Of a stretch of DNA of 64,000 bases, positions 1 to 40,506 are shown piece after piece. The stretch covers positions 123,743 to 187,742 of the forward strand of contig DAIMCS010000002.1 of assembly GCA_036726225.1 (NCBI GenBank). The letters are read 5' to 3'. The notes under the pieces are model-generated. The model saw only the letters and a program-made list of their open reading frames with translations. It was not told the DNA's origin and searched no databases. The translations under genes were made by a program, and so were the position numbers. Source of the stretch: Patescibacteria group bacterium. GTDB lineage: Bacteria > Patescibacteriota > Doudnabacteria > UBA920. How positions within the stretch are numbered: position 1 is the stretch's first letter; each line of letters starts with the position of its first letter.

Positions 1-233
1 AAAAGAATATTCTCCCACTGACTCTGCCCAATACCAAAATACTGGTAAATCTTTAGTGGCGCTTTCCACTTGCTGGCCGGTTGGCAGCACAGCCAAAAGG
101 TTAGTTGTGTACGGCGAGTTAATGCAGGTTGAAAAGTAATAAGTTCGCTTTGCCCTTGACAACAAGAGATAAAACCATTATAATTAAAAGTTAAAATCAT
201 TATCCATCTTATTTAAGCTTTAAACGAGTACTT

Positions 234-3200
234 ATGAACAAAATATTACAAGTGTTAAAACCTCAAGTTAGTTTACCAATTGCCCTGGCCATTTTAGTTG
301 GCTTAAGCGGCGTTTTTGTAATGTCGCCAAGGGCCTCCAGAATTGTAAAAGCCGAAAATTGTAACAATGCCCCTTCTGTAGCGACTTTAAACTTTTACCC
401 GGTTACCTGGGGAAACGTTGCGGGTGTTAACTGTTTGGATTTTGCTCCTATATCTATAAGAAACGTAAACAATCCTAATTACGCCCCGAGCGTTTCTGCC
501 CAGCCCGGAGAAGAAATGTATGTAAGTATTTACGTACACAATGGCGCCAGACAAGATGGCGACCCAAACCAAACCACAGCCCAAAATGTAAACGGGAGCA
601 TTTCGCTTTCCGGCAATACCATTTCCACAAGTTTTGCAGGTTCTAATACCAACACCAAAACTGGTGATGTCACTGTAGATATGCCTTCCGGTGCGACTTT
701 GGAAATTATTCCGGGTACAGAGGAATTTTTTGACTATCAATTTAGACCCATTTCCAAAAGTGTCAATTTAACTACTACCGGCGGGAGTTTTAATTTAGGT
801 GATATGCTCGCCTGTTTTGAATATTCCATTCAGCTTCGTTTTAAAGTAAAAGTTGTCGGGGCGGCTGCAGGCACAGGCAATATTGACGCGCAGACAAAAG
901 ACCAAAACTGCCCGGCCGGCAATTACAACGGCATTGTAAGCTGGAATGTTAGCGGCGGCGTTACCCAATCTGCCGTTTATGTCGATGATTTAAATGACAA
1001 CTTAGGCCCGCAATATTTTAGCGGTGAGCTTTGGGCTGAAAACAAAGCAATCTCTTTAATTCCAAACCATACTTTTGTTTTTACTCTCTATTCTGTTCAA
1101 AACGGAGTTGAAACTAAAATCTCTGAGGATTCCACCGGCGTTGTACCTGCGCTTAATTGCGGCGAGGATGCCACCGGAAATATTGATGTAGTCGTGCAGA
1201 GTCAAAACTGCCCGGCCGGCAATTACAACGGCATTGTAAGCTGGAATGTTAGCGGCGGCGTTACCCAATCTGCCGTTTATGTCGATGATTTAAATGACAA
1301 CTTAGGCCCGCAATATTTTAGCGGTGAGCTTTGGGCTGAAAACAAAGCAATCTCTTTAATTCCAAACCATACTTTTGTTTTTACTCTCTATTCTGTTCAA
1401 AACGGAGTTGAAACTAAAATCTCTGAGGATTCCACCGGCGTTGTACCTGCGCTTAATTGCGGCGAAGGCCCCACCACTTTAGTTTGTACGCCCCAAACGC
1501 AGACTGTAAATTCCGGAGCCCAGGCAAGTATTACTGCCAGCGGAGGCACTGCTCCATATTCATGGAAAGAAGGCGGCGTAGTAGTCAGCACACAGCCTAC
1601 CATTACCAGGACTTATACCAACCCTCTAACCTCTACTCAAACCAATACGCTTACTGTTTCAAGCTCAGACGGTCAAACTAAAACTTGTATTATATATGTA
1701 AATGGAGTTAGCGCTCCGCAAAGCGCCAGTATTGTTATAACTAAAGATGTCAGAAATATTACCCAAAACCAGTCTACTTTTGTGGATTCTACATCTGCCA
1801 AACAAAACGATACTTTAGAATACCGCATTGTGGTATCGGCAGGCAGCTCTGTGGCTTTAAACAACGTTGTTGTAACCGACACCTTTGCATCCGGCTTAAC
1901 TTATTTAAGCGGTTCTATTAGGGTAAACGGCCAGCCGCACAGCGCCGGGCTCTCCAGCGGGGGATTAACTTTCTCTTCTGTTAGCCAGGGTTCTCCGTTA
2001 ACTATTACTTACCAGGCCACAGTTAACGCCTCCAGCGGCACTATTGTAAATACCGCTAAGGCCACTGCTTCTAATTCAATCAATTTTCCTAGCGATACTG
2101 CAACTGTAAACGTAACTACGAATCCGGTTTCAGTTAATTGTACTGCTAATCCGACCGTTATTAATATAAACGGTTCAACTACTTTTTCCGCCTCAGGCGG
2201 CAATGGTTCTTATTCTTGGACTGTAACCGGCGGCAGTGTAACCAATTCAACTCAACAAAGCTTTAACTCAACTTTCAACACTGCGGGCACTTTTATAGCC
2301 ACTGTCTCCAGCGGCGGCAATTCCGCCACCTGTAACGTTGTTGTAAACAGCAACCCTAACAATTTAGTTTGTTATGCTAACCCATCTGTAATAAGCTCCG
2401 GTCAAAGCGTGACTTTTACTGCCTCAGGCGGCAGCGGATCTTATACTTGGCATGACAACGGCAACACTTATTTCGGCAGCTCTTACACACCTAACCCAAA
2501 TTACATTAACAACTCTACAGGGTCTATTACCCGCACCGTAACTGTAAACAGCGGCGGCCAAACCGTGCAATGCAGCGTTACTATAAACGGTATTAGCAAC
2601 CCGGGCCAGGCCATTTTGAACATTTCCAAAATGGTCAGGAATACAAACGGCGGCGCTTATCAAAATAGCGTGACCGTAAATACTAATGACACTGTCCAGT
2701 TTGAAATTGTTGTAACCAACAACGGCAGCCAGACAGCAAACAATGTCCGCGTAACTGACAACCTAACTAACGGGTTAAGCTTAGTGCCGGGCAGCGTAAC
2801 TGTTGACGGTTCATACGCTTCTGATTCCACTATCTATTCAGGAATGTATTTAGGCAACTTAGTCCCCGGCCAACAAAAACGAATTAATTTTCAGGCCAGA
2901 ATTAATTCCACCGGTTCTTCCAGCATCCAAAATGTTGCCGTAGCCAACTCCGACAATGCGGGCAGCGTACAAGCCAGCGCCTGGGTTTTTGTAAGCCAGG
3001 TTTCTGGAGGTAATGTAAACTTAAATTACAGCAAGCGCGCTTTCAACGAAACTAGAAATGCCGATGCTACCACTGTTACTGCGCAAAGAGAAGACTTTAT
3101 TACTTATACTTTAACTGTCAACAACAGCGGCAATACACCTGCAAATAATTTCGTCATTACTGACGACCTAAGTCAGGTTTTGCAATATGCTGATATGGTG

Positions 3201-3512
3201 GACAATGGCGGGGGTAGTTTAAACGGCAGTGTTATAAATTATCCGGGTATAACTGTTCCGGCCGGCGGTAGCGTATCGCGCAGCTTTAAAGTGAGAGTCA
3301 AGTTCTCGCTTGCCAGCAACCTTAGCTACACTATGACTAACACTTACGGCAATACCGTAACTGTCAGAATTAACACTCCGCAGGTTTTAGGCAACTTTGT
3401 TGCTCCTAAGACCGGTGCGGAAACTGCGGCTTTCAGTTTTGCAGGCATATTTACCGGCGCTGCAGCGCTTATTAGAAAAAGAAAGTATTTAATGAAGCTT
3501 ATCTTTACTTAA
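234..3512 (+). CDS. Large secreted cell-surface protein with DUF11-type 'conserved repeat domain' modules and Ig-like repeats; C-terminal sortase-like sorting signal
   Basis: N-terminal signal peptide (KPQVSLPIALAILVGLSGVFVMSP). Repeated modules of type VVTDTFASGLTYLSGS / VTDNLTNGLSLVPGSVTV typical of DUF11. The C-terminus is VAPKTGAE + hydrophobic stretch + RKRK, resembling an LPXTG-type cell-wall sorting signal. A terminator follows. Confidence 0.8.
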   Translation: MNKILQVLKPQVSLPIALAILVGLSGVFVMSPRASRIVKAENCNNAPSVATLNFYPVTWGNVAGVNCLDFAPISIRNVNNPNYAPSVSAQPGEEMYVSIYVHNGARQDGDPNQTTAQNVNGSISLSGNTISTSFAGSNTNTKTGDVTVDMPSGATLEIIPGTEEFFDYQFRPISKSVNLTTTGGSFNLGDMLACFEYSIQLRFKVKVVGAAAGTGNIDAQTKDQNCPAGNYNGIVSWNVSGGVTQSAVYVDDLNDNLGPQYFSGELWAENKAISLIPNHTFVFTLYSVQNGVETKISEDSTGVVPALNCGEDATGNIDVVVQSQNCPAGNYNGIVSWNVSGGVTQSAVYVDDLNDNLGPQYFSGELWAENKAISLIPNHTFVFTLYSVQNGVETKISEDSTGVVPALNCGEGPTTLVCTPQTQTVNSGAQASITASGGTAPYSWKEGGVVVSTQPTITRTYTNPLTSTQTNTLTVSSSDGQTKTCIIYVNGVSAPQSASIVITKDVRNITQNQSTFVDSTSAKQNDTLEYRIVVSAGSSVALNNVVVTDTFASGLTYLSGSIRVNGQPHSAGLSSGGLTFSSVSQGSPLTITYQATVNASSGTIVNTAKATASNSINFPSDTATVNVTTNPVSVNCTANPTVININGSTTFSASGGNGSYSWTVTGGSVTNSTQQSFNSTFNTAGTFIATVSSGGNSATCNVVVNSNPNNLVCYANPSVISSGQSVTFTASGGSGSYTWHDNGNTYFGSSYTPNPNYINNSTGSITRTVTVNSGGQTVQCSVTINGISNPGQAILNISKMVRNTNGGAYQNSVTVNTNDTVQFEIVVTNNGSQTANNVRVTDNLTNGLSLVPGSVTVDGSYASDSTIYSGMYLGNLVPGQQKRINFQARINSTGSSSIQNVAVANSDNAGSVQASAWVFVSQVSGGNVNLNYSKRAFNETRNADATTVTAQREDFITYTLTVNNSGNTPANNFVITDDLSQVLQYADMVDNGGGSLNGSVINYPGITVPAGGSVSRSFKVRVKFSLASNLSYTMTNTYGNTVTVRINTPQVLGNFVAPKTGAETAAFSFAGIFTGAAALIRKRKYLMKLIFT
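903..1465 (+). repeat. Perfect tandem duplication (2 x 300 bp period, 263 bp identical) inside the adhesin gene, in frame
   Basis: Positions 903-1165 are identical base-for-base to 1203-1465 (checked line by line). They encode NCPAGNYNGIVSWNVSGGVTQSAVYVDDLNDNLGPQYF...VVPALNCGE twice. Confidence 0.95.
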
Positions 3513-3525
3513 AAATAAAATTAAA

Positions 3526-3566
3526 AAAGCCCCGAATCCGCTATCTGGCAGACGGGGCTTTTTTAC
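3526..3566 (+). terminator. Rho-independent terminator after adhesin gene
   Basis: aaagccccg...cggggctttttt hairpin plus T-run. Confidence 0.7.
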
Positions 3567-4086
3567 TTGCGCAATTTCGGGGAAGTGCTATTATAAAAGT
3601 AAATCGGGCTTAAAATGCCCTACCAAACAGAGGTGGAAATGAAGGTAGCTCCGTACGGCCGAGAAAGAAATGACCGGAAAAAAGTTTTGTTGCTGAGTTT
3701 ATTGGTAACTTTTTGCCTACTGTTTACGGCCTGGCAACTTGCGCAAACTCGCGTATACAGAGAAAGACCAGGGGAGCAATTGCAACCACTGCCTTCCCCG
3801 CTGACGGTTCAATATGTTTGCGGGCAAAAAGGAGTTGTGTGCGTATGGGGGTAGCCCACTTAATCAAAAGGGGGGCCGTCGGTACAAACCTTCCGCCCCT
3901 TCCTCATCTTAACAAAACAAAAACCAACAGCTAGAAAGCTGTTTTTATTTTTACCAGCCAACCAATGACTAACCAATATCTTTTAGACCTAATTCATGAA
4001 GCAAACAACCGCGGCGGCGGTATGGTTTTAAATTTGGACGGACAGCCCCAAGTTGTCGTTTTGACTTTGGATCGGTATAATCAAAT

Positions 4087-5077
4087 TATGAATAAGGAAT
4101 CAATAAAAAATAAAGAATTAAAAGTGCTGGTCACCGGCGGAGCGGGGTATATTGGCGGGCATTTGGTGAAAGAATTGACAGAAGCAGGTTATCAGGTGGT
4201 GGTTTTAGATAATTTATCCAGCGGCAAAAGAGAAAATATTGACCCCAGGGCTGTTTTTATAGAAGGGGATTTGGCCGACACAAATTTGCTTAAAGATATT
4301 TTTGCGGCCAATAAATTTGACGCAGTTTTCCATATGGCTGCGAGCGTGGAAGTGGAAGAATCGGTCAAAGAGCCTCAAAAATATTTTGACAACAATGTCA
4401 GCAATACCAACAAGCTTTTAAACGCAATGGCAGAAGCCGGGTGTAAAAAGATTATTTATTCCTCCACAGCCGCGGTTTACGGCGAAAGCCAAAACCCCAT
4501 AACCGAAACTTCACCGCTGCACCCTTCCAGCCCTTATGGCGCAAGCAAACTTTTGGGCGAGCGGGCCATAAAATATTTTTGCGAAAATTTGGGTTTTTCC
4601 GCCGTTGTATTCCGTTATTTTAATGCCTGCGGTTTTAACCCAAAAGCTAAAATTTTGCCTACCCACCAGTCGCATTTAATTTACAATGTTATGCAAGTTG
4701 CTTTGGGGCGAAAATCTGCCCTGCAGGTTTTTGGCAACAGTTACAACACCCTGGACGGCACGGGGATTCGGGATTATGTGCATATTTTGGATATTGTCCA
4801 TCCTCATATTCTGGCTTTAAATAAGCTGGACGGAAATAAATTCGAAATTATAAATATTGGTACCGGCAAAGGCAGTAGTGTTGCACAAGTAATTAATACC
4901 GCGTCAGAAGTTTTAAACAAAATTATTCCCATGGAGATTGTGGGGAAAAGAGCAGGGGACTCTGCTATTACCGTAGCCGACAACGCTAAGCTTCGGAAAG
5001 ATTTAGGTTATGAACTCAAATATAGTGATTTAGAGAATATAATTAGGACTAGTTGGGAAGGCATGAAGAACATATAG
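4087..5077 (+). CDS. galE: UDP-glucose 4-epimerase (NAD-dependent epimerase/dehydratase); the ORF is open upstream to 3965 (alternative start)
   Basis: Rossmann motif VLVTGGAGYIGGH, YSSTAAVYG, and catalytic SPYGASK (YxxxK). A TATAAT at 4074-4079 lies 7 nt before the ATG at 4087. Confidence 0.85.
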
Positions 5078-5096
5078 ATTAGAAACAAATTCACTT

Positions 5097-5124
5097 AAAA
5101 CCCGTCTATAAGTAGGCGGGTTTT
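5097..5124 (+). terminator. Terminator after galE, followed by an extended -10 promoter (TGtTATAAT 5125-5133)
   Basis: aaaacccgtctataagtaggcgggtttt hairpin. Confidence 0.6.
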
Positions 5125-5208
5125 GTGTTATAATTTATCTGGGTTCGCGGAAAACGTGCGGAATTTAACGCCCAAAGTACGCGGAAACTAGATAATTAAC
5201 ACATTAAA

Positions 5209-5928
5209 ATGAACAAACTGTCAGTTGTTATCCCGGCTTACAACGAGGAGCATCGTATTGCTCAAACGCTTGCGTCAGTAAGCGAGTATTTAAAAAAACA
5301 GCCTTACGATTACGAAATTTTGGTAGTCAACGACGGTTCTAAAGACTCAACAGCAAAAGCCGTATTAAGCCTTGAGTCACAAATCCCGAATTTAAGGTTA
5401 ATTGATAACCGGGAAAACCACGGCAAAGGCTGGGTAACAAAACAGGGTATGCTTGCGGCAACCGGGGATGTCAGGTTGTTTATGGACGCTGACAATTCCA
5501 CTAAGGTTGATGAAGTAAGCAAAATGTTGCCGTTTTTTTCGCAAGGGAATGACATAGTTATTGGCTCCCGCAGAATTAAAGGCTCGGTCATTGCCATCCA
5601 CCAGCCATGGTTTAGGGATTTTTTAGGCGGCGTGTTCCGGTTTATTGTGCATACGTTGGTTCCGCTTAATGTAACGGATTCGCAGTGCGGTTTTAAGACT
5701 TTTTCGGGCAAAGCCGCGCAAACCGTTTTTAGCAGACAAACTGTTTTTCGCTGGGCGTTTGACGTTGAAATTTTAGCAATTGCCCGCAGGCATAAATTAA
5801 AAATAGCAGAAGTGCCCATAACCTGGGTCAATGACGCAGAAAGCCACGTAAAATTTTCAGGGGAAGTGAATATGCTTTTGGAAATTTTTAAAACCAGGTT
5901 AAATTTATGGGCAGGAAAGTATAAATGA
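5209..5928 (+). CDS. Family 2 glycosyltransferase (dolichyl/polyprenyl-phosphate sugar synthase-like)
   Basis: VVIPAYNEE...VVNDGSKD...DADNS motifs (GT-A DXD). Confidence 0.85.
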   Translation: MNKLSVVIPAYNEEHRIAQTLASVSEYLKKQPYDYEILVVNDGSKDSTAKAVLSLESQIPNLRLIDNRENHGKGWVTKQGMLAATGDVRLFMDADNSTKVDEVSKMLPFFSQGNDIVIGSRRIKGSVIAIHQPWFRDFLGGVFRFIVHTLVPLNVTDSQCGFKTFSGKAAQTVFSRQTVFRWAFDVEILAIARRHKLKIAEVPITWVNDAESHVKFSGEVNMLLEIFKTRLNLWAGKYK

Positions 5929-7799
5929 GAATAACGCTTTCAAAATTTAGTAAATTAAAAAAAACGATTGCCATTTTTATGGTACTCATTTTTGTTTTTA
6001 TTCCCGAATTTTTGCCCACCAAAGCGGCTTTAGCCGGACAGGAAGCCGGGGGAACTTATATTATCAAACTTAAAGACACTAAAGATTACAGCCGGCTGCT
6101 TTTGGTTTCGGACTCAATTAAAAGGCGCTTTATCCAAAGTAAAAACATCCAATTTCAAAATATCTACACTTTTAATTCCAACTTAAGCCTTGCGGGTTTA
6201 AAAAATTTTTTAGCCGGTACGTATGAATACATTGAGCCCCAAAAAGTTTTACAGGTTTCTGAAGTTTTTGTAAATGACCCGGGTTTTACCCTCCAGGAGC
6301 AAAACGTCGATAAGCAGTGGGGTCTGGTTAAGGCCGGCTTTTCCCAAGCCTGGGCAAAAACCGTGGGCAGCGATGCAAATGTTGTTGCAATTATAGACAC
6401 AGGCATAGACGGGACCCACGAAGATTTACAAACTACAAATTTTGTATCCGGTTTTAATTTTATTTCCAACCAACCGATTGCGGCCGGACCAAACAATAAT
6501 TCGGACGACAACGGCCACGGCACTTTGGTTGCCGGCGTCCTGGGCGCGGCAACCAATAACGGCATGGGAGTTGCGGGAACTAACTGGGAAATTTCCCTAA
6601 TGGCCCTTAAAGCTTTGGATAAAGAGGGTAAAGGCGATGTTTCTGGCGTGGCTGAGGCAATTGTCTGGGCAACCGACCACGGCGCCCAGTTTGTAAATTT
6701 GAGCTTAGGCGGCATAGGTTTTGGCCACGACACGACTTTAGCCAACTCTATTAATTACGCCTTTAATAAAAACGTACTTATTGTCGCTGCCGCCGGTAAT
6801 GACACGGCAACAACGGGCAGTAACCTGGACCAGACGCCTGTTTTTCCGGTTTGTGACGACAATAATTTTAATATGATAATCGGCGTGGCGGCAACGGACC
6901 ATAATGATTTAAAACCCGCCTTCTCTAATTACGGTAAAAATTGCATAGATGTAACCGCACCCGGCAAAAGAATTTTATCTACAATTAATTTCGACCCGCT
7001 ATCCCAAAAGCCTTCGCCAAATTCTTATGCTTACGCTTCGGGAACTTCTTTGGCCGTGCCTTTTGTTGTAGGACAGGCCGCGCTTATAAAAGCCCTGTAC
7101 CCGCAAGCCACCAACATACAAATCCGCGACCGGATAATCGGCACGGCAGACACTATAGATAATTTAAACCTTATCCAGTGCGCAGGGGGTTCTTGTAGGG
7201 GGCTGGTCGGCGCGGGCAGGATTAATGTGTTTAGAAGTTTGCAAACAGAAATCCCTCTAGATTTTATTGAATGGGATATTGTGAAGGTCAACGATTTAAG
7301 CGGGGTGGTTTACCAAATTGTTGGCGGCCAAAAGAGGCTCATCTCCTCCTTTGTTTATAACCAGCGTTTTGCCAATTCCGAGTTTAAGACCGCCAATTTC
7401 GACCAGCTTGCCAACTTTCCCGAAGGCCCGTATGTAACGCCTCAAGATGGTACTTTAGTTAAATATGATACCAGCCCGACTGTTTACATAATGGACAAAG
7501 GGCAAAAGTTGCCCATAACCGCGCAGGTGTTTTTTCAAAGGAAACTTAGCTTTGCTGACGTTCGCACTTTAAGCGTTTCTGAACTCGACTCCTGGGCAAA
7601 AGGGAATTTTTACCCGCCGGCGGAAGGCACGCTGCTGAAAGCCGCAAAAAGCAAAACCGTCTATTGGGTGGTGGGTCAGGTACTACACCCTATAAATAAT
7701 ACATTCTATGCCGACAAGGGGCTAAAGGTTTTTCCTCTCATAACTTTTTCTGACGCGGATATTGCGAGTTTCCCCAAAGGCGAAGCTTATATTAGATAG
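5925..7799 (+). CDS. Secreted subtilisin-like serine protease (peptidase S8) with C-terminal ~55-aa repeat modules
   Basis: Signal/TM at N-terminus. Catalytic triad motifs AIIDTGID (Asp), HGTLVAG (His) and GTSLAVPFV (Ser). Three C-terminal repeats of the type DGTLVK..TVY.V..GQK.PI. Confidence 0.9.
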   Translation: MRITLSKFSKLKKTIAIFMVLIFVFIPEFLPTKAALAGQEAGGTYIIKLKDTKDYSRLLLVSDSIKRRFIQSKNIQFQNIYTFNSNLSLAGLKNFLAGTYEYIEPQKVLQVSEVFVNDPGFTLQEQNVDKQWGLVKAGFSQAWAKTVGSDANVVAIIDTGIDGTHEDLQTTNFVSGFNFISNQPIAAGPNNNSDDNGHGTLVAGVLGAATNNGMGVAGTNWEISLMALKALDKEGKGDVSGVAEAIVWATDHGAQFVNLSLGGIGFGHDTTLANSINYAFNKNVLIVAAAGNDTATTGSNLDQTPVFPVCDDNNFNMIIGVAATDHNDLKPAFSNYGKNCIDVTAPGKRILSTINFDPLSQKPSPNSYAYASGTSLAVPFVVGQAALIKALYPQATNIQIRDRIIGTADTIDNLNLIQCAGGSCRGLVGAGRINVFRSLQTEIPLDFIEWDIVKVNDLSGVVYQIVGGQKRLISSFVYNQRFANSEFKTANFDQLANFPEGPYVTPQDGTLVKYDTSPTVYIMDKGQKLPITAQVFFQRKLSFADVRTLSVSELDSWAKGNFYPPAEGTLLKAAKSKTVYWVVGQVLHPINNTFYADKGLKVFPLITFSDADIASFPKGEAYIR

Positions 7800-7842
7800 G
7801 AGTTTTAAAATAGGAGGTACAAAAAGCATTAAGAAAAAAAAT

Positions 7843-9699
7843 ATGCTCAAAAGAAAAATTTTAAAATTTATAAGCGCCGTAATATTATTCAGCTTCCCGC
7901 TGGCCGCGTTGGCTATGCCGGTTGACCCAAATTTTAACCCGGCCAAACTCATTGACGACAAAGTTTTTTCCGACATTCAAACTTTTGGCGGTCCGGAAGG
8001 CGTGCAGAAATTTTTGGAAAGTAAAAATTCGGTTTTGGCAAACACCTCCGCGGATTTTTTGGTTAAGCTCAAAGAGCCGCAGGCTACCCAACTAAAAGAA
8101 GGCCTGGAAGACCCGCAGCCAAATTTAGGCAGGCTTAGGACAGCTGCGGAGCTTATTTGGGACGCCTCCAGGCAAAGCGGGCTTAACCCCCAGGTACTCC
8201 TGGTGACTTTAAACAAAGAGCAGGGGTTAATTACTTCTGCCGGGGATTTTTCCCAAAGCCAGCTGCAAAAAGCTTTAGACAGATCTATGGGTTTTGATTG
8301 TCCGGACGGCGGAGGCTGCGGTAGTTTGTTTCCGGGTTTTTATTATCAATTATTTGGGAATTTTGACTCCGAAGGCAACCGTTATTTAGGCGCGGCCAAA
8401 TCTTTAATGAAATCTTTTACCACAGACGGCGGGCGGGGACCGATTATTGACGGGCGTACCGCAAAGGTAGGCGAGACAATAGTCTTGGGCAACACTTTAG
8501 GCGGCTATGAAAATATTTTGCCTTCGCAGTCGGTGTGGCTGACCAATAATGCAACCGCCGCGCTTTACCGGTATACTCCGCATGTTTTTAACGGCAATTA
8601 CAATTTTTGGAAATTTTTCCAGGCGTGGTTTAAATATCCCAACGGCACGCTGCTTAAAATGGCGAGCTCCGGGGAAACATACATTATCCAAAACGGACTT
8701 AAAGCTTTTGTCCCGCAATTCGTGGCAGCTGCCAGAGGGCTTGATTTAAACAGCACCGTTATAATTTCGCCTACGGAATACGAAAGTTATGTAACAGACA
8801 AGCCGTTGGGGCCGGAAAATAACACCATTGTGCAGCTGCCGGGCCAAAACGAGAAATACGTATTTATAGACAACGTCAGGCACTTGGCGTCAGATTTGGT
8901 AATTAAGCAAAGAGGTTTGGATCCTAAAAAAGTTTTGAGCATTTTGCCGGACGAAGCCGCAATTTTTGAAGCCGGCAGTGTTTTGCCTCCCAAAGACGGC
9001 ACAGTTATCCGCGGCACAACTAACCAGGCAGTATTTTTGGTTAAAGACGGCAAAATTAAAATGTTCAGCGCTTACACATTTGCCCAAAATAAAATTACCA
9101 AAAAAGATATTATAACTGTTCCGGATTCCGAAATTGGCACTTATTCCCAAAGCGGTTTTGTAGCACCGCTCGACGGCAGCCTGGTTAAATCGGCAAACGA
9201 TAGCACAGTTTATTTAGTCCAAAGCTCACTTAAGCAGCCGCTGCTCGGCGAGATTTTCAAGAACCGCGGCTTAAGCTTTAAAAAAGTGGCAATAATTTCA
9301 TCTGACGAGTTAAATGCTCTGCCTATGGGCGGGTTGGCTACGCCTAAAGAGCTTACCTACTTTGCTGCCGATTCAAAGACCGGGCCTTTGTATATTTTTA
9401 AAGAAGGTTCAGTGCACAGCATCTCCAGTTTTGTTGCCAAACAACGCGGCATTACCCCGGATTATATATTTAGCACCAGCGCAATAAATTTTTGGATTGT
9501 GGGAATTCCCATCCCGCCTAAAGACAACACCATTGTAAAAGGCGATACTGACAATACAGTCTATCTTGTTTTAAAAGGCCAGTTAAGGCCTTTAACCTAC
9601 CAAGCTTTCACCAACCGAAAAATTACGTCCAAGAAAATTGTGAGTTTGCCACAGGCCGAAGTTGACGCTTACGCCAAAGGGGAGATAATCACCAAGTAG
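7843..9699 (+). CDS. Secreted hypothetical protein with six C-terminal ~55-aa repeats of the same family as the S8 protease tail (ORF open from 7762)
   Basis: Signal peptide MLKRKILKFISAVILFSFPLAALA. Repeats DGTVIRGTTNQAVFLVKDGKIKMFS / DGSLVKSANDSTVYLVQSSLKQPL / DNTIVKGDTDNTVYLVLKGQLRPL. Confidence 0.75.
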   Translation: MLKRKILKFISAVILFSFPLAALAMPVDPNFNPAKLIDDKVFSDIQTFGGPEGVQKFLESKNSVLANTSADFLVKLKEPQATQLKEGLEDPQPNLGRLRTAAELIWDASRQSGLNPQVLLVTLNKEQGLITSAGDFSQSQLQKALDRSMGFDCPDGGGCGSLFPGFYYQLFGNFDSEGNRYLGAAKSLMKSFTTDGGRGPIIDGRTAKVGETIVLGNTLGGYENILPSQSVWLTNNATAALYRYTPHVFNGNYNFWKFFQAWFKYPNGTLLKMASSGETYIIQNGLKAFVPQFVAAARGLDLNSTVIISPTEYESYVTDKPLGPENNTIVQLPGQNEKYVFIDNVRHLASDLVIKQRGLDPKKVLSILPDEAAIFEAGSVLPPKDGTVIRGTTNQAVFLVKDGKIKMFSAYTFAQNKITKKDIITVPDSEIGTYSQSGFVAPLDGSLVKSANDSTVYLVQSSLKQPLLGEIFKNRGLSFKKVAIISSDELNALPMGGLATPKELTYFAADSKTGPLYIFKEGSVHSISSFVAKQRGITPDYIFSTSAINFWIVGIPIPPKDNTIVKGDTDNTVYLVLKGQLRPLTYQAFTNRKITSKKIVSLPQAEVDAYAKGEIITK

Positions 9700-9711
9700 C
9701 CGCAAATGCAA

Positions 9712-9740
9712 AAAGCCTTGCTATAACCAAGGCTTTTTTG
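9712..9740 (+). terminator. Rho-independent terminator
   Basis: aaagccttgctataaccaaggcttttttg. Confidence 0.7.
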
Positions 9741-9772
9741 TTATATTTGTAAGCAGATTTGGGGAGGCAAAA

Positions 9773-10051
9773 ATGATTATCGAAGTTGCGTTATTCGGGT
9801 TCCGCAATGACGTTGATGCTGCAAGGGCCGCTCTTTTGGGGCTGATCCGTGAAAAACAGCCTTACTGGAAGATGGAACACAAAAGGCGGAAAGACGGAAC
9901 TAGCGGCTGGACAGAAGAAAACCCCTGCGTGCACTGGATTATTACTATTACAGAGGACTTGACTGTAGGGGAAGTCTTGAGGCAGATTGACGCTTTAAAT
10001 TTTGGTTTCGTTCTTGGCACCGATTGCCGCGCGTGCCAGAATAAAATCTAG
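9773..10051 (+). CDS. Small hypothetical protein (92 aa), GC-richer than its flanks, strong SD
   Basis: GGGGAGG RBS 6 nt upstream of the ATG. Followed by a GC hairpin plus T-run (10050-10078). Confidence 0.5.
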   Translation: MIIEVALFGFRNDVDAARAALLGLIREKQPYWKMEHKRRKDGTSGWTEENPCVHWIITITEDLTVGEVLRQIDALNFGFVLGTDCRACQNKI

Positions 10052-10103
10052 GCGAGCGCGGATGCTCGTCTTTTTTTATTGCAAATGTTAAAATAGGCTG
10101 AGT

Positions 10104-11546
10104 ATGAGTTTAAGCGTTTCAAAAAATATTTTTTGGTTAACAATCTCGCGTATAGCGGCTTTGGTTTTGCTGGCAATTGCATATTTTGCCCTGTTTAGGT
10201 ATTTAAAGCCTTACGGCTCGGGGCAATACCAGTTCGTGCTTTCCTATGTGCTGATTTTTGGCACCATAGTCGACTTTGGCATACAGCAGTTTATTACCAA
10301 AAAAATCAGCGAAGACCCCAAAAACGCCAAACAGTATTTTCAGGAATTTTTTTCCTTTGAAACTGTGGTGGCGCTGTCTTTGCTCCTCCTGTTAGTCGTT
10401 ATAGCTTACTTTAAGCATTACGAGGCCACGGTTTTTTATGCAATTGTCGCGGCGGGTTTAGGTATGGCCTTAAACGCTCTCTGCTATCCGTTTATGGCCG
10501 TGCTGGCAGCCTTTCAGGATATTAAAAAAGTTGCCCTTATAAATTTTTTAAATTCGGTGGTGAACTTCAGCATGATTTTTCTTGCCATTTTTTTCCATCG
10601 ATACATAGTATTTTTAGCCGCGACCACCGTAGTTTTTGGAATTTTGGATTTAATTCTTTACCGCGCGTTCGTAACAAAACATTTGCCCCGCCCGCAGGTA
10701 CTCAAAGCGGCTTTCAGTTTGGATTTCCGCCTCATAAAAAATATTATAAAACAGGGCTGGCCGTTTGCTGTGTTAGTCGGCTTTAGCGCCATTTACAATC
10801 GTATTGATGTGCTTATTATTACCACGTTACAGGGTTATCAGGAAACCGGGCTGTATACCGCTGCTTATAAAATTTTTGACCTGCTCGGGTTTTTCCCTGC
10901 CGCTGTTTCCTTTACGCTTTTCCCTTTTTTTGCAAGCCTCATTGCCCAAAAGGCCGTAAGTGAGGTAAAAGGGGCTTTAGAAAAATATTTGAGGTTAATG
11001 GTTATTGCCGCTTTGCCCATGGCTGTTGGCGGAACCATATTGGCCGCCAAATTAATAAACCTTATTGCCGGGCCGGGTTATGAAAACGCCGCCGGTGTGC
11101 TCGCCATACTTATTTGGGCGCCGGCCATACTTTTTATTTACATACCGGTAAACGCACTGGTCATTTCCCAGCTAACCAAAAAAGCCGTCATAATTACGGG
11201 CGCTAACGTTTTAGTCAATATTGTCGGCAACTTAATTTTAATTCCCATTTACGGCATTAAAGCCGCAGCGGTTATGACCGTGGTTTCAGAAAGCATCCAG
11301 GGCATTTTTTATTTTTATTTTGTAAGAAAAAATATTACACATTTCAATTTTTTTGGGTTGTTTCTAAAACCGCTTTTTGCTGCGGTGGCCATGGGTCTGG
11401 TGCTCTGGCCAATCCGCGGCCAGCAGCTGTTAGTTACATTGCCGGTCGGGGCAACAGTGTATTTTTTAATTTTAATGATTACGGGTTTTGTGAGTAAGTC
11501 AGATTTAAGTTTAGTTAAAGGTTTAATAAAATCACCTAATTCATGA
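10104..11546 (+). CDS. Polysaccharide biosynthesis flippase (Wzx / MOP superfamily)
   Basis: 480 aa, ~12-14 predicted TM helices; architecture and context match oligosaccharide flippases. Confidence 0.75.
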   Translation: MSLSVSKNIFWLTISRIAALVLLAIAYFALFRYLKPYGSGQYQFVLSYVLIFGTIVDFGIQQFITKKISEDPKNAKQYFQEFFSFETVVALSLLLLLVVIAYFKHYEATVFYAIVAAGLGMALNALCYPFMAVLAAFQDIKKVALINFLNSVVNFSMIFLAIFFHRYIVFLAATTVVFGILDLILYRAFVTKHLPRPQVLKAAFSLDFRLIKNIIKQGWPFAVLVGFSAIYNRIDVLIITTLQGYQETGLYTAAYKIFDLLGFFPAAVSFTLFPFFASLIAQKAVSEVKGALEKYLRLMVIAALPMAVGGTILAAKLINLIAGPGYENAAGVLAILIWAPAILFIYIPVNALVISQLTKKAVIITGANVLVNIVGNLILIPIYGIKAAAVMTVVSESIQGIFYFYFVRKNITHFNFFGLFLKPLFAAVAMGLVLWPIRGQQLLVTLPVGATVYFLILMITGFVSKSDLSLVKGLIKSPNS

Positions 11547-18702: not shown

Positions 18703-20502
18703 ATGCCAAAAATAACTGCTCAAGAACTTAGGGAAAAGTATTTAAATTTCTTTAAGTCTAAAAACCATACTATTATTCCTTCGGCGTCTTTGGTGCCGGG
18801 GTCAGAAACGTCCGCGCTTTTTACCATGGCCGGTATGTTCCCTTTAGTGCCCTATCTTTTGGGAGAAAAACATCCCGGGGGGAGCAGGGTTACCAATGTG
18901 CAAAAATGTATACGCACTATAGATATTGATGACGTAGGTGACAACACGCACGGAACTTTTTTTGAAATGATGGGCAATTGGAGCTTTGGTGATTATTTTA
19001 AAAAAGAAGCCATTGAGTGGAGCTTTGAATTTTTAACTAACAAAGAAACCGGTCTGGGTTTGCCTATTGAGCGATTGGGTTTTTCGGTTTTTGCCGGGGA
19101 TGGAGACGCGCCATTTGACGAAGAGTCGGAAAAGATTTGGCTGTCTTTAGGTGTTCCCAAAGAACGCATTGCGCGGCTTCCTAAAGAAGACAACTGGTGG
19201 ATAGCAGGGGAAACCGGCCCCTGTGGCCCCGACACCGAAATGTTTTACTGGATAGACGACGGCACTCCGGCGCCATCCAAGTTTGAAGGCAATGCTAAAG
19301 ACAAAAGATGGGTTGAAATTTGGAATGATGTCTTTATGCAGTACAACAAACTGCAGGACGGCAAACTCGTCCCGCTTCAAAACCCAAACGTAGACACGGG
19401 TATGGGTTTGGACAGGACTTTGGCGGTTTTAAACGGACAGACATCGGCTTACGATACAGAGCTATATAAAGGCATGTGGGAGGTTTTGGCCCTAGACCAG
19501 GACATTATGACTAACGATGAAGTCCGCAAGGGTAGAATTGTGCTGGACCATGTTCGAGCTTCTGTATTTATAGCAGGGGACGGGGTTGAGCCTTCCAACA
19601 AAGACCGCGGTTATGTTTTGCGAAGGTTACTTCGCCGAGCAATGGTTATGGGAAGGTTGCTGAACTTGAAGCACCATTGGCTTGAGGCTTTAGTTGGAAA
19701 AGTTGTGGCTGAATATTCAGAGGCGTATCCTGATTTAATGGATAAATCTGAAAATATTTTTGAAGTTTTAGACAAAGAAAAAAATAAATTTGAAGTCACT
19801 TTGGAAAAGGGGTTAAAAGAGTTAGGCAAATTGGTGCAATCCGACAGTCACGTAAAACAACATCCGTTAACCGGTAAGCACGCTTTTGATTTATACCAGA
19901 CTTATGGTTTCCCCTGGGAGCTTACAAAAGAAATGGGGGAGCAGTTTGGGCAAAAGATAGACAAGAAAGAATTTGAGGAGGAATTTAAAAAGCACCAGGA
20001 ATTGTCCAGGACTTCTTCTGCCGGTATGTTTAAAGGCGGACTGGTTGACTTGGAACCAAAAACCATAAGACATCACACTGCGCACCATCTTTTACTTGCG
20101 GCACTGCGGCAGGTTTTAGGCGACCATGTTTTCCAGCGCGGTTCCAATGTTTCGTCAGAAAGATTGAGAATAGATTTTTCGCATGGTGAAAAAATGACGC
20201 CCGAGCAAATTAAACAGGTGGAAGAAATTGTAAACCAAAAAATAGAAGAAGACCTAAAAGTTGAAAGAAAAGAAATGGCAAAAACCGAAGCGGAAAAATT
20301 AGGCGCGCTAGCAGAGTTTGGTGCTAAGTACGGTGATACGGTTAGTGTTTATTCAATTTACGAAAATGACGGCACGGCTTTTTCCCGTGAATTTTGCGGC
20401 GGCCCGCACGTGGAGCACACGGCAGTAATAGGTAAATTCAAAATTATAAAAGAGGAAGCATCCAGCGCAGGGGTGAGAAGAATTAAAGCAAGTGTAGAAT
20501 AA
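18703..20502 (+). CDS. alaS: Alanine--tRNA ligase, short form (catalytic and editing domains; no long C-terminal domain)
   Basis: Class II AlaRS N-terminus (FTMAGMFPLVPYLLG, FEMMGNWSFGDYFK). Editing-domain motifs HHTAHHLL and CGGPHV. Confidence 0.85.
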   Translation: MPKITAQELREKYLNFFKSKNHTIIPSASLVPGSETSALFTMAGMFPLVPYLLGEKHPGGSRVTNVQKCIRTIDIDDVGDNTHGTFFEMMGNWSFGDYFKKEAIEWSFEFLTNKETGLGLPIERLGFSVFAGDGDAPFDEESEKIWLSLGVPKERIARLPKEDNWWIAGETGPCGPDTEMFYWIDDGTPAPSKFEGNAKDKRWVEIWNDVFMQYNKLQDGKLVPLQNPNVDTGMGLDRTLAVLNGQTSAYDTELYKGMWEVLALDQDIMTNDEVRKGRIVLDHVRASVFIAGDGVEPSNKDRGYVLRRLLRRAMVMGRLLNLKHHWLEALVGKVVAEYSEAYPDLMDKSENIFEVLDKEKNKFEVTLEKGLKELGKLVQSDSHVKQHPLTGKHAFDLYQTYGFPWELTKEMGEQFGQKIDKKEFEEEFKKHQELSRTSSAGMFKGGLVDLEPKTIRHHTAHHLLLAALRQVLGDHVFQRGSNVSSERLRIDFSHGEKMTPEQIKQVEEIVNQKIEEDLKVERKEMAKTEAEKLGALAEFGAKYGDTVSVYSIYENDGTAFSREFCGGPHVEHTAVIGKFKIIKEEASSAGVRRIKASVE

Positions 20503-20510
20503 GGATAAAT

Positions 20511-29168: not shown

Positions 29169-29512
29169 TGCTTTAAGCAAACTCGTAAGCCGAATTCTGT
29201 TTCTAAATAATCATCTATCTGGTCACGTTATTGCTAACGTGATCAAGCAACCTACCTAATTTGGTCTTGCACTCAAGTAAGGATTTGGCCGTTTCACCTT
29301 TAATGTTTCCATCAAAGCTAATCTCTTGCGAGATCCTTGGCGTCTTTCGTACCAAGCGTCTCTGTTCGCACCTCTAGGATTACTCCCGACGGGAATTACC
29401 CGCTACCAGTTTTGATAACTCATATGAGGCTATCAAATAAGTGTTCGGACTTTCCTCCCCAACCGGCATCTTGCGATGCCAATTAAAGCGATTATTCGGT
29501 TTGCTTAAAGCC
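29169..29512 (-). ncRNA. rnpB: RNase P RNA, bacterial type A
   Basis: The minus-strand reading contains GGGGAGGAAAGTCCG (P4 / CR-I), AAAGGTGAAACGGCC (GGUGAAA region) and ACAGAATTCGGCTTACGAG (ACAGAAnCCGGCUUA, CR-V). The P1 stem is gctttaagcaaac / gtttgcttaaagc. Length ~344 nt. Confidence 0.85.
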
Positions 29513-39935: not shown

Positions 39936-39986
39936 TTTTCCAAATCGCTGTGTGGATGTGAGCAAAACAAGCAAGGAGGATTGATT

Positions 39987-40259: not shown

Positions 40260-40409
40260 AAGTGCCTAGCAGGAAGCGAATTTACATTCGCTTCCTGCGT
40301 CACAATACTAATTACTTTTTTATGAGAACAATAAACTCAAAATTATATATTTCCATTTGGTGGGTTTTGCAATTCCCGCAAAGCCGTCTTTAAGCGTGTT
40401 TAGTTACAA

Positions 40410-40446: not shown

Positions 40447-40506
40447 CTTTTGATTGTCAAACAATCGAGAGCCAGCACAAAAGCTGGAGAAGGCAGGAGG
40501 AATATT

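What the first reader, a model, noticed from the sequence alone, without database searches (positions are those of the whole stretch)
3390..3512. Sortase-type sorting signal with non-canonical APKTG motif on the 1092-aa adhesin
The C-terminus reads VAPKTGAE, then ~17 hydrophobic residues, then RKRK. This is the tripartite architecture of LPXTG substrates but with A at position 1. It may define the substrate motif of this lineage's sortase.
Basis: partly seen in the sequence, partly recalled or inferred. Interest (0 to 1): 0.5.

Follow-up and report, generated by a model that had tools for sequence, protein, structure and literature searches.

The report
Sortase anchor signal reading APKTG
The large surface protein ends in a sortase anchoring signal that reads FVAPKTG instead of the textbook LPXTG, its probable sortase gene lies directly upstream, and the same pairing recurs across a whole group of uncultivated ultra-small bacteria, pointing to a natural sortase with an unusual specificity.

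Summary

**The signal.** ORF 234..3512 (1092 aa) ends in FV-APKTG-AE, then 17 hydrophobic residues, then RKRK.

**The sortase.** It lies immediately upstream. Window 2..139 encodes its last 45 codons, including the catalytic Cys and Arg. The full 434-aa gene was recovered from identical metagenome contigs.

**Sortase classification.** It is a bona fide sortase by Pfam, by the His/Cys/Arg triad and by predicted fold. It falls far below the cut-offs of all class A-F models. It belongs to a large subfamily of 400-550 aa enzymes from Patescibacteria (Candidatus Doudnabacteria).

**Conserved pairing.** In all 21 related sortase loci with enough downstream DNA, a large adhesin with the same signal follows.

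**Motif conservation.** A signal-only profile search of 1.84 billion proteins, together with the adhesin homologues, gave 108 distinct tails. Position 1 is Ala in 106 and never Leu. The signal also occurs on unrelated proteins with no Pfam domain.

**Two extras.** The tail after the basic patch is conserved. About a third of the sortases carry an APxTG copy in their own linker.

**Verdict.** This is a new variant of a known kind. Cleavage itself is untested.

The parts
2..139 (+). 3' end of the sortase gene: its last 45 codons plus the stop (KEYSPTDSAQYQNTGKSLVALSTCWPVGSTAKRLVVYGELMQVEK*). It contains the catalytic Cys (LSTCWP) and Arg (AKRLVV). The first 389 codons lie outside the window.
   Evidence: Translation. 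Identical over 300 of 300 aligned bases to L001, where the full 434-aa ORF is called as PF04203 Sortase. Cys413 and Arg422 are invariant in 54 and 70 homologues.
156..184 (+). Promoter-like site (TTGACA, 17 nt, TATAAT) in the 94-nt gap between the sortase stop and the adhesin start.
   Evidence: 12 of 12 consensus matches, the only perfect site in window 1..4000. This is a consensus match only; function is not shown.
234..3512 (+). Gene for the 1092-aa surface adhesin, with DUF11/CLIPPER and PKD-like Ig-fold repeats. It is the predicted sortase substrate.
   Evidence: ORF. Pfam DUF11 at 81 bits, with sub-threshold PKD and DUF7507 matches. TIGR01451 at 87.8 bits. Homologues P0001-P0022.
234..356 (+). 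N-terminal export signal: residues 1-41, with a basic n-region, the hydrophobic stretch LPIALAILVGLSGVFVM and then ...IVKA/EN.
   Evidence: Strongest hydrophobic 17-mers of the protein are at residues 11-16. The cleavage site is read by eye and was not predicted with a tool.
3021..3389 (+). Last Ig-like (DUF11/DUF7507-type) domain, ending ...NTYGNTVTVRINTPQVLGN. It accompanies the signal in most carriers.
   Evidence: Sub-threshold DUF7507 and DUF7619 matches at residues 942-986. 89 of 108 signal-bearing tails are preceded by N[TSVP][YF]GN. In L016 a 217-aa protein consists of this domain plus the signal only. The domain's start coordinate is approximate.
3396..3416 (+). Extended recognition motif F-V-A-P-K-T-G. 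The pentapeptide APKTG is 3402..3416. The predicted scissile bond lies between T (3411..3413) and G (3414..3416).
   Evidence: Logo of 108 distinct tails: position -2 is F 81 / Y 11, position -1 is V 60 / I 23 / T 14, position 1 is A 106 / P 2, position 3 is K 74 / T 15 / P 6 / R 4 / V 3. P, T and G are invariant in the unfiltered alignment. The cleavage position is inferred from known sortase chemistry.
3423..3473 (+). Hydrophobic membrane-spanning segment TAAFSFAGIFTGAAALI (17 aa) with a conserved F-[AS]-G-[LI] core.
   Evidence: Hydrophobicity peak at residue 1064. F15 is nearly invariant in alignment A4. There are 19-21 residues between the motif's G and the basic cluster in all 108 tails.
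3474..3485 (+). Basic stop-transfer patch RKRK.
3486..3509 (+). Extra conserved C-terminal tail YLMKLIFT (consensus x-L-[LM]-K-L-I-F-T). To my knowledge it is not part of the classical LPXTG signal.
   Evidence: Consensus ...RKRKxLxKLIFx in 19 homologues. The distance from the first basic residue to the C-terminus is 8-19 aa, most often 12. Tail type differs between sortase clades.
3522..3565 (+). Intrinsic-terminator-like hairpin followed by a T run, just after the adhesin stop.
   Evidence: RNA fold of -22.6 kcal/mol with z = -3.9 against shuffles. Sequence.

Best explanation
The C-terminus of the 1092-aa adhesin is a sortase-type cell-wall sorting signal whose recognition motif is [FY]-[VIT]-A-P-x-T-G, here FVAPKTG, rather than LPXTG. 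Its cognate enzyme is the sortase encoded immediately upstream.

**Proposed sequence of events** (every step below is inferred; cleavage has not been shown)
1. The precursor is exported through Sec by its N-terminal signal.
2. The hydrophobic segment and the RKRK patch hold the C-terminus in the membrane, with the YLMKLIFT tail in the cytoplasm.
3. The sortase is membrane-anchored with its N-terminus inside: a cytoplasmic region of about 85 aa, one membrane-spanning helix, a helical linker domain, and the catalytic domain outside.
4. The sortase attacks the T-G bond with Cys413 and forms a thioacyl intermediate.
5. That intermediate is resolved by an amine of the peptidoglycan precursor lipid II. 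The isopeptide-stabilised (CLIPPER) stalk ends up covalently attached to the cell wall.

**Shown**
- The signal's anatomy.
- The sortase's identity and its catalytic residues.
- The conserved gene adjacency.
- The near-invariance of Ala at position 1.
- The presence of peptidoglycan genes.

**Inferred**
- Cleavage at the T-G bond.
- The nature of the acceptor.
- Any role for the conserved membrane-spanning segment and tail.
For: **Signal anatomy**
-.
- TIGR01167 scores 19.5 bits against a cut-off of 15.9 on the isolated C-terminus.

**Adjacent sortase**
- Window 2..139 is the end of a 434-aa sortase.
- It scores 75 bits on PF04203 and 46.4 bits on TIGR01076, whose cut-off is 39.35.
- His341, Cys413 and Arg422 are invariant in 54-70 homologues.
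- The AF2 model of homologue P0052 matches solved sortases at E about 1e-12, with rmsd 2.3-3 A over about 145 residues.

**Conserved pairing**
- The order sortase then adhesin is found in L001, L005 and L006.
- It is found in 7 of 7 genome loci (the seventh, L015, was missed by the pattern and is counted because it is the same contig as L006, whose adhesin P0019 ends ITAPKTG).
- It is found in 14 of 14 metagenome loci with a sortase at least 39% identical and at least about 4-5 kb of downstream DNA.

**Motif conservation**
- 108 distinct tails have A at position 1 in 106 cases and never L.
- The same [FY]VAPxTG signal occurs on 115-464 aa proteins; the six of these scanned against Pfam have no domain. 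The signal is therefore portable and not merely the end of one protein family.

**Independent link between enzyme family and motif**
- 36 of 110 sortase homologues carry xPxTG in their own linker, with A at position 1 in 26. Shuffles give 3.9 +/- 2.0.

**Acceptor available**
- MurG, MurC-like ligase, MurB, MurD, MraY, FtsW, a YkuD L,D-transpeptidase and an S11 carboxypeptidase are all encoded in the window.
Against: - There is no biochemical evidence of cleavage or wall linkage for any member.
- On the full-length protein TIGR01167 is below its cut-off (13.6 against 15.9 bits).
- The sortase fits none of the class A-F models (scores 23-51 bits against cut-offs of 140-166), so its specificity cannot be borrowed from a characterised class.
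- Some substrates are not next to a sortase: L007 and L017-L019.
- Only about 74 kb of this genome was visible. A second sortase or canonical LPXTG proteins elsewhere cannot be excluded.
- The profile search was built from APxTG sequences, so it is somewhat biased towards Ala at position 1.
Confidence: 0.75

Rival explanations
1. The adjacent sortase is a dedicated polymerising enzyme, like class C sortases. It would join adhesin subunits, or the adhesin to a small base subunit, through a Thr-Lys isopeptide bond into a fibre, rather than attach monomers directly to peptidoglycan.
For: - The sortase sits next to its substrate, as pilus sortases do.
- The best class-specific matches are class C, both in NCBIfam (51 bits) and in PDB (8t28).
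- L016 encodes a second, 217-aa protein that is just the terminal domain plus an APKTG signal, reminiscent of a minor or basal pilin.
- A motif in the sortase linker occupies the position of the class C lid.
Against: - The class C model is far below its cut-off (51 against 160 bits).
- The fold search ranks class A and class C sortases equally.
- There is no DP[WFY] lid motif in the sortase sequence (read).
- There is no YPK pilin motif in the adhesin.
- The window's locus has only one substrate gene.
- The same signal occurs on unrelated proteins far from any sortase, as expected for a housekeeping enzyme.
Confidence: 0.12
2. The C-terminus is simply an uncleaved membrane anchor, a stop-transfer helix followed by a basic patch. 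The APKTG resemblance to a sortase motif would have no function.
For: - No cleavage data exist.
- The membrane-spanning segment and tail are unusually well conserved. That conservation could reflect a function within the membrane.
Against: - P, T and G are invariant and A nearly so across 108 tails from proteins that are otherwise less than 50% identical, including unrelated passengers.
- The spacing of 19-21 residues to the basic patch is fixed.
- A sortase gene is adjacent in 21 of 21 informative loci.
Confidence: 0.06
3. The signal is processed by a different C-terminal sorting system of exosortase, archaeosortase or rhombosortase type. These systems also use a motif, a membrane-spanning segment and a basic tail.
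For: The tripartite architecture is shared by those systems (established knowledge). The extended conserved tail is atypical for LPXTG signals.
Against: - No such enzyme is annotated in any of the flanks that carry Pfam gene tables, namely L001-L007 and L017-L019.
- The NCBIfam scan of the tail gave only the LPXTG_anchor model.
- The invariant P..TG is the sortase signature.
- The co-located enzyme is a sortase.
Confidence: 0.02

Closest known systems
Classical LPXTG cell-wall sorting signal with class A housekeeping sortase (Staphylococcus aureus SrtA; TIGR01167)
   Same: - Tripartite C-terminal signal: a pentapeptide with P at position 2, T at 4 and G at 5, a hydrophobic segment, and a basic patch.
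- N-terminal export signal.
- A membrane-anchored Cys transpeptidase with a His/Cys/Arg triad and the sortase beta-barrel fold.
   Different: - Position 1 is Ala in 106 of 108 tails and never Leu.
- Conservation extends two residues upstream ([FY][VIT]).
- The membrane-spanning segment has a conserved F-[AS]-G-L core.
- A conserved tail of about 8-12 residues follows the basic patch.
- The enzyme is 400-550 aa, with a cytoplasmic N-terminal region of about 85 aa and a helical linker domain of about 110 aa.
- It fails all class A-F models.
Clostridioides difficile SrtB and its (S/P)PXTG substrates (motif recalled from my own knowledge; PMC4155245 seen only as an abstract)
   Same: A natural sortase system in which position 1 of the pentapeptide is a small, non-leucine residue while P, T and G are kept.
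   Different: - Different residue (Ser or Pro rather than Ala).
- A class B-type enzyme from Firmicutes of ordinary length.
- No conserved tail after the basic patch is known.
Class E sortases with LAXTG signals (Streptomyces, Corynebacterium; PMC5148588, title and abstract)
   Same: A lineage-wide housekeeping sortase whose motif differs from LPXTG by one alanine.
   Different: There the Ala replaces Pro at position 2. Here Pro is invariant and the Ala replaces Leu at position 1. The class E model scores only 36.7 bits against a cut-off of 160.
Class C pilus sortases with their lid and adjacent pilin genes
   Same: - The sortase gene lies next to its substrate gene.
- Class C gives the best, though weak, class-level sequence match.
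- A segment N-terminal to the catalytic barrel that could occupy the active site.
   Different: - No DP[WFY] lid.
- No YPK pilin motif.
- Scores far below the cut-off.
- The candidate lid is a copy of the substrate motif itself. It is present in only about a third of homologues and is absent from the window's enzyme.
Laboratory-evolved S. aureus SrtA variants F40 and F1-21, which accept APXTG (PMC9126251)
   Same: The same target motif: APKTG and APATG peptides are ligated by these mutants.
   Different: These are engineered beta6/beta7-loop mutants with low activity. In the papers found by my searches, APXTG appears only in connection with engineered enzymes. Here a natural enzyme family appears to be dedicated to it.

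Membership tests
Sortase-dependent cell-wall sorting signal (LPXTG type, TIGR01167) | Pentapeptide L-P-x-T-G about 30-40 residues from the C-terminus | tested here: not met
   P, T and G are present and invariant, but position 1 is Ala (APKTG, 3402..3416). Across 108 tails it is A in 106, P in 2 and L in 0. This is a variant, not the canonical motif.
Sortase-dependent cell-wall sorting signal (LPXTG type, TIGR01167) | Hydrophobic segment followed by positively charged residues at the C-terminus | tested here: met
   A 17-aa hydrophobic stretch followed by RKRK. Spacing is 19-21 aa in all 108 tails. Eight extra residues follow the basic patch.
Sortase-dependent cell-wall sorting signal (LPXTG type, TIGR01167) | Score at or above the curated cut-off of the family model | tested here: inconclusive
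   19.5 bits on the isolated last 80 aa (cut-off 15.9), but 13.6 bits on the full protein.
Sortase-dependent cell-wall sorting signal (LPXTG type, TIGR01167) | N-terminal secretion signal on the same protein | tested here: met
   The strongest hydrophobic segment is at residues 11-31, after a basic N-terminus. No dedicated signal-peptide predictor was available.
Sortase-dependent cell-wall sorting signal (LPXTG type, TIGR01167) | A sortase encoded in the same genome | tested here: met
   The adjacent upstream gene is a sortase. The adjacency is conserved in 21 of 21 informative related loci.
Sortase-dependent cell-wall sorting signal (LPXTG type, TIGR01167) | Cleavage between T and G and amide linkage to peptidoglycan | not testable with these tools
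   This needs biochemistry. Only the availability of peptidoglycan and lipid II synthesis genes was shown.
Sortase superfamily (PF04203 / TIGR01076) | Family model above its cut-off | tested here: met
   PF04203 scores 75 bits (cut-off 26.6). TIGR01076 scores 46.4 bits (cut-off 39.35).
Sortase superfamily (PF04203 / TIGR01076) | Catalytic His, Cys (TLxTC-type motif) and Arg | tested here: met
   His341 (YISGHSSNY), Cys413 (ALSTCWP, with the first T replaced by A) and Arg422 (AKRLVV) are invariant in 54 and 70 homologues. The Cys and Arg lie inside the window.
Sortase superfamily (PF04203 / TIGR01076) | Eight-stranded beta-barrel sortase fold and an N-terminal membrane anchor | tested here: met
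   In the AF2 model of homologue P0052 the catalytic domain has block-mean pLDDT of about 67-97, mostly above 83. Foldseek matches solved sortases at E about 1e-12. A hydrophobic 19-mer lies at residues 86-104.
Sortase classes A-F (NCBIfam class models) | Score at or above the class-specific cut-off | tested here: not met
   Class C: 51 against 160 bits. Class D: 49 against 165 bits. SrtD: 48.6 against 140 bits. Class E: 36.7 against 160 bits. Class F: 22.8 against 166 bits. No class A or class B model matched. The fold search does not favour one class either.
Class C (pilus-assembly) sortase system | Lid with DP[WFY] in the sortase, and a pilin motif (YPK) with a nucleophilic Lys in the substrate | tested here: not met
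   The only DP in the sortase is in TDPDA (sequence). There is no [FYW]PK in the adhesin.

The most novel reading that the evidence does not exclude
These enzymes would be a separate, Patescibacteria-specific sortase class with natural [FY][VIT]APxTG specificity, in which substrate choice is not made by the pentapeptide alone.

- The substrate has a conserved membrane-spanning core (F-A-G-L) and a cytoplasmic tail (xLLKLIFT).
- These would be read by the sortase's own conserved membrane-spanning helix and by its cytoplasmic N-terminal domain of about 85 aa, which starts with KKYPV.
- The tail type changes together with the sortase clade and with the presence of that N-terminal region.
- In about a third of the enzymes, an APxTG copy 20-28 residues before the catalytic barrel would act as a pseudo-substrate lid or a self-processing site.
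Probability: 0.2. Interest if true: 0.75.

Novelty: new variant of a known kind. Interest (0 to 1): 0.55.

Why it matters
**Surface biology of uncultivated bacteria.** Sortases are reported in more than half of the genomes of CPR (candidate phyla radiation, i.e. Patescibacteria) bacteria (PMC6744442). My literature searches found no description of their substrates or motif. Standard LPXTG-based predictors would therefore miss the surface proteins of these ultra-small bacteria, which are thought to live attached to other microbes, and those proteins are the ones most likely to mediate attachment. The logo [FY]-[VIT]-A-P-x-T-G-[AVS], with about 20 hydrophobic residues, a basic patch and a tail, gives a direct way to list them.

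**Protein engineering.** APXTG-accepting sortases have so far been obtained only by directed evolution of S. aureus SrtA. They are used, for example, to modify the native APATG site of histone H3 (PMC9126251). A natural enzyme family dedicated to APxTG could provide an orthogonal and possibly more active ligase.

**Sortase regulation.** The substrate-like motif inside many of the sortases, and the conserved cytoplasmic tail, raise testable questions about how sortases are regulated and how they select substrates.

Tried and rejected
1. **First sortase scan missed the gene.** My scan for TLxTC-type motifs covered ORFs of at least 100 aa inside the window and found nothing. The gene runs off the window's left edge and its motif is ALSTC. 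It appeared only when flanking DNA was fetched.
2. **Exact look-ups failed.** The 1092-aa protein and the identical P0001 are not on record. The 992-aa variant P0002 worked.
3. **Word-index search with the signal alignment A2.** One attempt failed on a parameter limit. The second returned only two short fragments. I suspect, but did not test, that the word index does not reach a short motif at the end of long proteins. The exhaustive representative search solved this.
4. **False positives.** That search also returned about 15 hits from ISIHAPRTGSD repeats. These are internal and multi-copy, with no membrane-spanning stretch, and were discarded.
5. **Class assignment failed.** Neither the NCBIfam class models nor the PDB sequence and fold searches placed the sortase in one class.
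6. **Pseudo-substrate docking not supported by AF2.** The segment of P0052 carrying its own APKTG has pLDDT below 50. The lid idea therefore rests on sequence statistics alone.
7. **Pilus reading not supported.** There is no YPK motif and no DP[WFY] lid.
8. **No organism names.** The cluster-member look-up gave none. The taxonomic placement (Patescibacteria, Candidatus Doudnabacteria) rests on source names of homologues and locus titles.
9. **Literature.** Searches for APKTG, APXTG and for sortase together with CPR, Patescibacteria or Saccharibacteria found no description of this natural motif.
Full report
**1. The observation**

ORF 234..3512 (+) encodes a 1092-aa protein ending ...GNFVAPKTGAETAAFSFAGIFTGAAALIRKRKYLMKLIFT.

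| Feature | Window coordinates |
|---|---|
| APKTG | 3402..3416 |
| 17-residue hydrophobic stretch | 3423..3473 |
| RKRK | 3474..3485 |

- The protein carries DUF11 (recently renamed CLIPPER, an isopeptide-bonded stalk domain of fibrillar adhesins, PMC12617251). It also has sub-threshold PKD-like matches.
- It has exactly two hydrophobic segments: an N-terminal export signal and the C-terminal one.
- Among 115 six-frame ORFs of at least 80 aa in the window, a relaxed motif pattern flagged this ORF and one 81-aa antisense ORF. The latter's tail has no xPxTG, and I treat it as spurious.
- The isolated C-terminus passes the LPXTG_anchor model (19.5 bits, cut-off 15.9). The full protein does not (13.6 bits).

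**2. Where the sortase is**

My first scan of the window found no sortase. That was an artefact, because the gene runs off the left edge.

- A 99%-identical variant of the adhesin (P0002, 992 aa) is on record on eight metagenome contigs. Four of them were fetched with 10-kb flanks (L001-L004), and each shows a 434-aa gene hitting PF04203 that ends 94 nt before the adhesin start.
- Window 1..300 is identical to L001.
- Window 2..139 translates to the last 45 residues of that sortase, KEYSPTDSAQYQNTGKSLVALSTCWPVGSTAKRLVVYGELMQVEK. These include the catalytic Cys and Arg.
- Between the two genes lies a perfect TTGACA-17-TATAAT site at 156..184.
- After the adhesin there is a strong hairpin followed by a T run at 3522..3565 (-22.6 kcal/mol, z = -3.9).
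- The adhesin therefore looks like its own transcription unit placed directly behind the sortase.

**3. What kind of sortase**

- It passes Pfam Sortase (75 bits) and the generic TIGR01076 model (46.4 bits, cut-off 39.35).
- It is far below every class model: C 51/160, D 49/165, E 37/160, F 23/166 bits.
- The best PDB sequence hits are class C and other sortases at E 1e-7 or weaker.
- **Architecture**:
  - a cytoplasmic N-terminal region of about 85 aa with a conserved start (KKYPV);
  - one membrane-spanning helix (residues 86-104);
  - a conserved linker domain containing DxDNSGNGLxN;
  - a variable low-complexity stretch;
  - the catalytic domain (about 285-434), with His341, Cys413 (ALSTCWP) and Arg422 invariant in 54-70 homologues.
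- **AF2 model of homologue P0052**:
  - a confident beta-barrel;
  - a confident helical linker domain (pLDDT about 90).
- The barrel matches class C and class A sortases equally (E about 1e-12 to 1e-10, rmsd 2.3-3 A over about 145 residues).
- **Family size:** 404 hits at E no greater than 1e-5. The best 120 are all 396-547 aa and 44-61% identical. Where named, they are called sortase of Candidatus Doudnabacteria or Patescibacteria.

**4. Is the pairing conserved?**

*From the substrate side.* Homologues P0006 (Doudnabacteria GCA_016218585.1) and P0019 (35% identical, GCA_021811585.1) have the same gene order: CAP protein (minus strand), sortase, an optional unknown gene of about 440 aa, then the adhesin, then GT2 and an S8 peptidase, with an epimerase before GT2 in L005 but not L006. 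P0018's locus has no sortase within 8 kb.

*From the sortase side.*
- A scan of GTDB species genomes gave 9 loci. All 7 with enough downstream DNA carry an adhesin ending in APKTG, APRTG or APATG. L015, which the pattern missed, is the same contig as L006, where the adhesin P0019 ends ITAPKTG.
- A metagenome scan gave 59 loci. All 14 with a sortase at least 39% identical and about 4-5 kb of downstream DNA carry a large same-strand protein ending [FYIT][VIT]AP[KT]TG, then a membrane-spanning stretch, a basic patch and a tail.
- More distant sortases (29-35% identical, with NLSTCWP or LTTCWP motifs) mostly lack such a neighbour.

**5. Is APxTG the lineage's motif?**

- The 19 full-length homologues that carry the signal, chosen without any motif filter, show invariant P, T and G, and Ala in 18 (Pro in one).
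- A 39-position profile of the signal alone was searched against 1.84 billion representative proteins. It gave 112 hits at E no greater than 1e-3.
- About 97 of these are genuine C-terminal signals. About 15 are junk from ISIHAPRTGSD repeats.

Logo from 108 distinct tails, pooled from these hits and the adhesin homologues:

| Position | Residues |
|---|---|
| -2 | F 81, Y 11 |
| -1 | V 60, I 23, T 14 |
| 1 | A 106, P 2 |
| 3 | K 74, T 15, P 6, R 4, V 3 |
| +1 | A 72, V 18, S 14 |

- There are 19-21 residues from the motif's G to the basic cluster.
- There are 8-19 residues (most often 12) from the first basic residue to the C-terminus.
- **Caveats.** My extraction pattern required P at position 2 and TG at positions 4-5. 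The profile favours Ala. However, a one-position change costs only a few bits within a 35-70 bit range, and no LPxTG variant appeared.
- **Passenger proteins:**
  - 89 tails follow the adhesin's terminal NTYGN domain.
  - 12 sit on 115-464 aa proteins with Ser/Thr-rich linkers. The six of these scanned against Pfam (353-464 aa) have no domain.
  - Two of these (P0230, P0248) were looked up, and their genes are not near a sortase.
- The signal is therefore portable, as expected for a general sorting signal.

**6. Mechanism**

The best-supported reading is ordinary sortase chemistry with a changed recognition motif.

1. Sec export.
2. Retention by the membrane-spanning stretch and RKRK.
3. Attack of the T-G bond by Cys413.
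4. Transfer of the adhesin to a lipid II amine.

The window itself encodes MurG, MurC-like ligase, MurB, MurD, MraY, FtsW, an L,D-transpeptidase and a D-Ala-D-Ala carboxypeptidase, so the acceptor pathway exists. Cleavage, the acceptor and the roles of the conserved membrane-spanning core and tail are all inferred.

*Polymerising, class C-like reading.* It is kept as the main rival because of the gene adjacency and the small base-like protein in L016. However, there is no YPK pilin motif, no DP[WFY] lid and no class C score.

**7. Two unexpected features**

*Conserved tail.* The tail after the basic patch is conserved and clade-specific.
- The types seen are KLIFT/LILN, ELIW[DS], and PKVRIE/PKIKLQ-type tails.
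- The KLIFT type mostly accompanies sortases that align from residue 1.
- The PKVRIE type mostly accompanies sortases that align only from about residue 50-83 (L049/L051 are an exception).
- This is compatible with cytoplasmic recognition by the sortase N-terminus, but also with plain shared ancestry.

*Motif inside the sortases.*
- 36 of 110 sortase homologues carry xPxTG 15-32 (mostly 20-28) residues before the catalytic barrel. Examples are P0052 (YVAPKTGAD) and P0044 (AVAPKTGAD).
- Position 1 is A in 26 and S in 7. Position +1 is A in 24.
- Shuffled linkers give 3.9 +/- 2.0, with a maximum of 11 in 500 shuffles.
- This independently ties the enzyme family to the motif. It suggests a pseudo-substrate lid or a self-processing site.
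- AF2 does not order this segment.
- The window's own sortase lacks it.

**8. Comparison with what is known, and novelty**

- Sortase motif variants are well known: LAXTG for class E, NPQTN for class B, LPNTA for class D, and (S/P)PXTG in C. difficile. The last four motifs are recalled from my own knowledge.
- Sortases are known to be widespread in CPR bacteria (PMC6744442).
- In the searchable literature, APXTG appears only as the target of laboratory-evolved S. aureus SrtA mutants (PMC9126251 and others).
- NCBIfam has no dedicated model for this tail.

I therefore rate this a new variant of a known kind: an ordinary mechanism with a new natural specificity and an unclassified long sortase subfamily. 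It has practical value for predicting the surface proteomes of Patescibacteria and as a possible natural orthogonal ligase. Interest is 0.55.

Noticed in passing
Related proteins P0033-P0135 (sortase homologues); not in the window's own sortase: 36 of 110 homologous sortases contain a copy of the substrate motif (mostly APxTGA) in their own linker, 15-32 (mostly 20-28) residues before the catalytic domain. Shuffled linkers give 3.9 +/- 2.0. It could be a pseudo-substrate lid or a self-cleavage site. AF2 gives this segment low confidence.
   Followed up: partly
window 903..1465: A perfect 300-bp tandem duplication (1.9 copies, 100% identity) inside the adhesin gene gives two identical 100-aa repeats. 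The otherwise 99%-identical variant P0002 from JGI and ENA contigs has one copy (992 aa). This is either repeat-number variation between populations or an assembly difference.
   Followed up: partly
window 3486..3509 and tails in L012, L013, L035, L041, L049, L050, L058: The stretch after the basic patch is conserved within clades but differs between them (KLIFT/LILN, ELIW[DS], PKVRIE/PKIKLQ). It mostly tracks whether the neighbouring sortase shares the N-terminal cytoplasmic region. It could be co-evolution or simply phylogeny.
   Followed up: partly
window 3965..11546 and L001, L005, L006, L022, L032, L041, L046, L049, L058: The gene order around the pair is conserved: CAP-domain protein (minus strand, outside the window), sortase, adhesin, NAD-epimerase, GT2 glycosyltransferase, S8 subtilase, and a repeat protein of about 620-650 aa with no Pfam hit. 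Where flanks reach far enough (L001, L005, L006) a polysaccharide flippase follows. It looks like a surface-structure module. Whether the adhesin is glycosylated or processed by the subtilase is unknown.
   Followed up: no
L005 6350..7711, L006 6473..7786, L016 4282..5709, L042 11587..13065, L050 3633..5453, L055 11280..13100, L058 11199..12386: Many relatives have an extra gene between the sortase and the adhesin. It encodes a 395-606 aa protein. The translated ones (L005, L006, L016) show an N-terminal hydrophobic signal, a C-terminal membrane-spanning stretch and a Gly/Pro-rich end; those with gene tables (L005, L006) have no Pfam hit. None has an xPxTG signal. The gene is absent from the window's genome.
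   Followed up: no
L016 8932..9585; L063 17408..18988 and 19106..20521: L016 encodes a 217-aa protein made only of the adhesin's terminal domain plus YRAPKTG, a membrane-spanning stretch and RRQ, right after the adhesin gene. L063, which has a distant sortase (34% identity), has two proteins ending TYIAPKSG and TYVAPATG. So Ser can replace Thr at position 4 in remote relatives.
   Followed up: no
window 48772..49401 and sortase residues about 157-175 (L001): The YkuD L,D-transpeptidase carries DSDSDGLSDYYE and DTDHDGFLDGGE motifs. These resemble the invariant DxDNSGNGLxNxxK motif of the sortase linker domain. They look like calcium-binding repeats of thrombospondin-3 or dockerin type (from memory, not tested) shared by exported cell-wall enzymes of this organism.
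   Followed up: no
window 29170..29507 (-): Bacterial RNase P RNA class A at 122 bits (gathering score 100). It is the only Rfam family at gathering score in the window. ARAGORN found no tRNA or tmRNA genes in 64 kb.
   Followed up: no
window about 39900..42470: About 2.5 kb of low coding density between the ribosome-associated factor gene and secA. It holds only short ORFs, including a 97-aa ORF at 40911..41204 (-) that looks to me like a helix-turn-helix regulator (not tested), and no Rfam hit.
   Followed up: no
Representative-library hits P0201, P0202, P0211, P0222, P0226, P0227, P0233 and others: The signal profile also picked up proteins made of repeated ...ISIHAPRTGSD...FNPRSPHGERL...FQSTLPARGAT... 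units. I take these to be translated repetitive DNA, which I did not test. They are unrelated to sortase signals and are a trap for motif-based searches.
   Followed up: no
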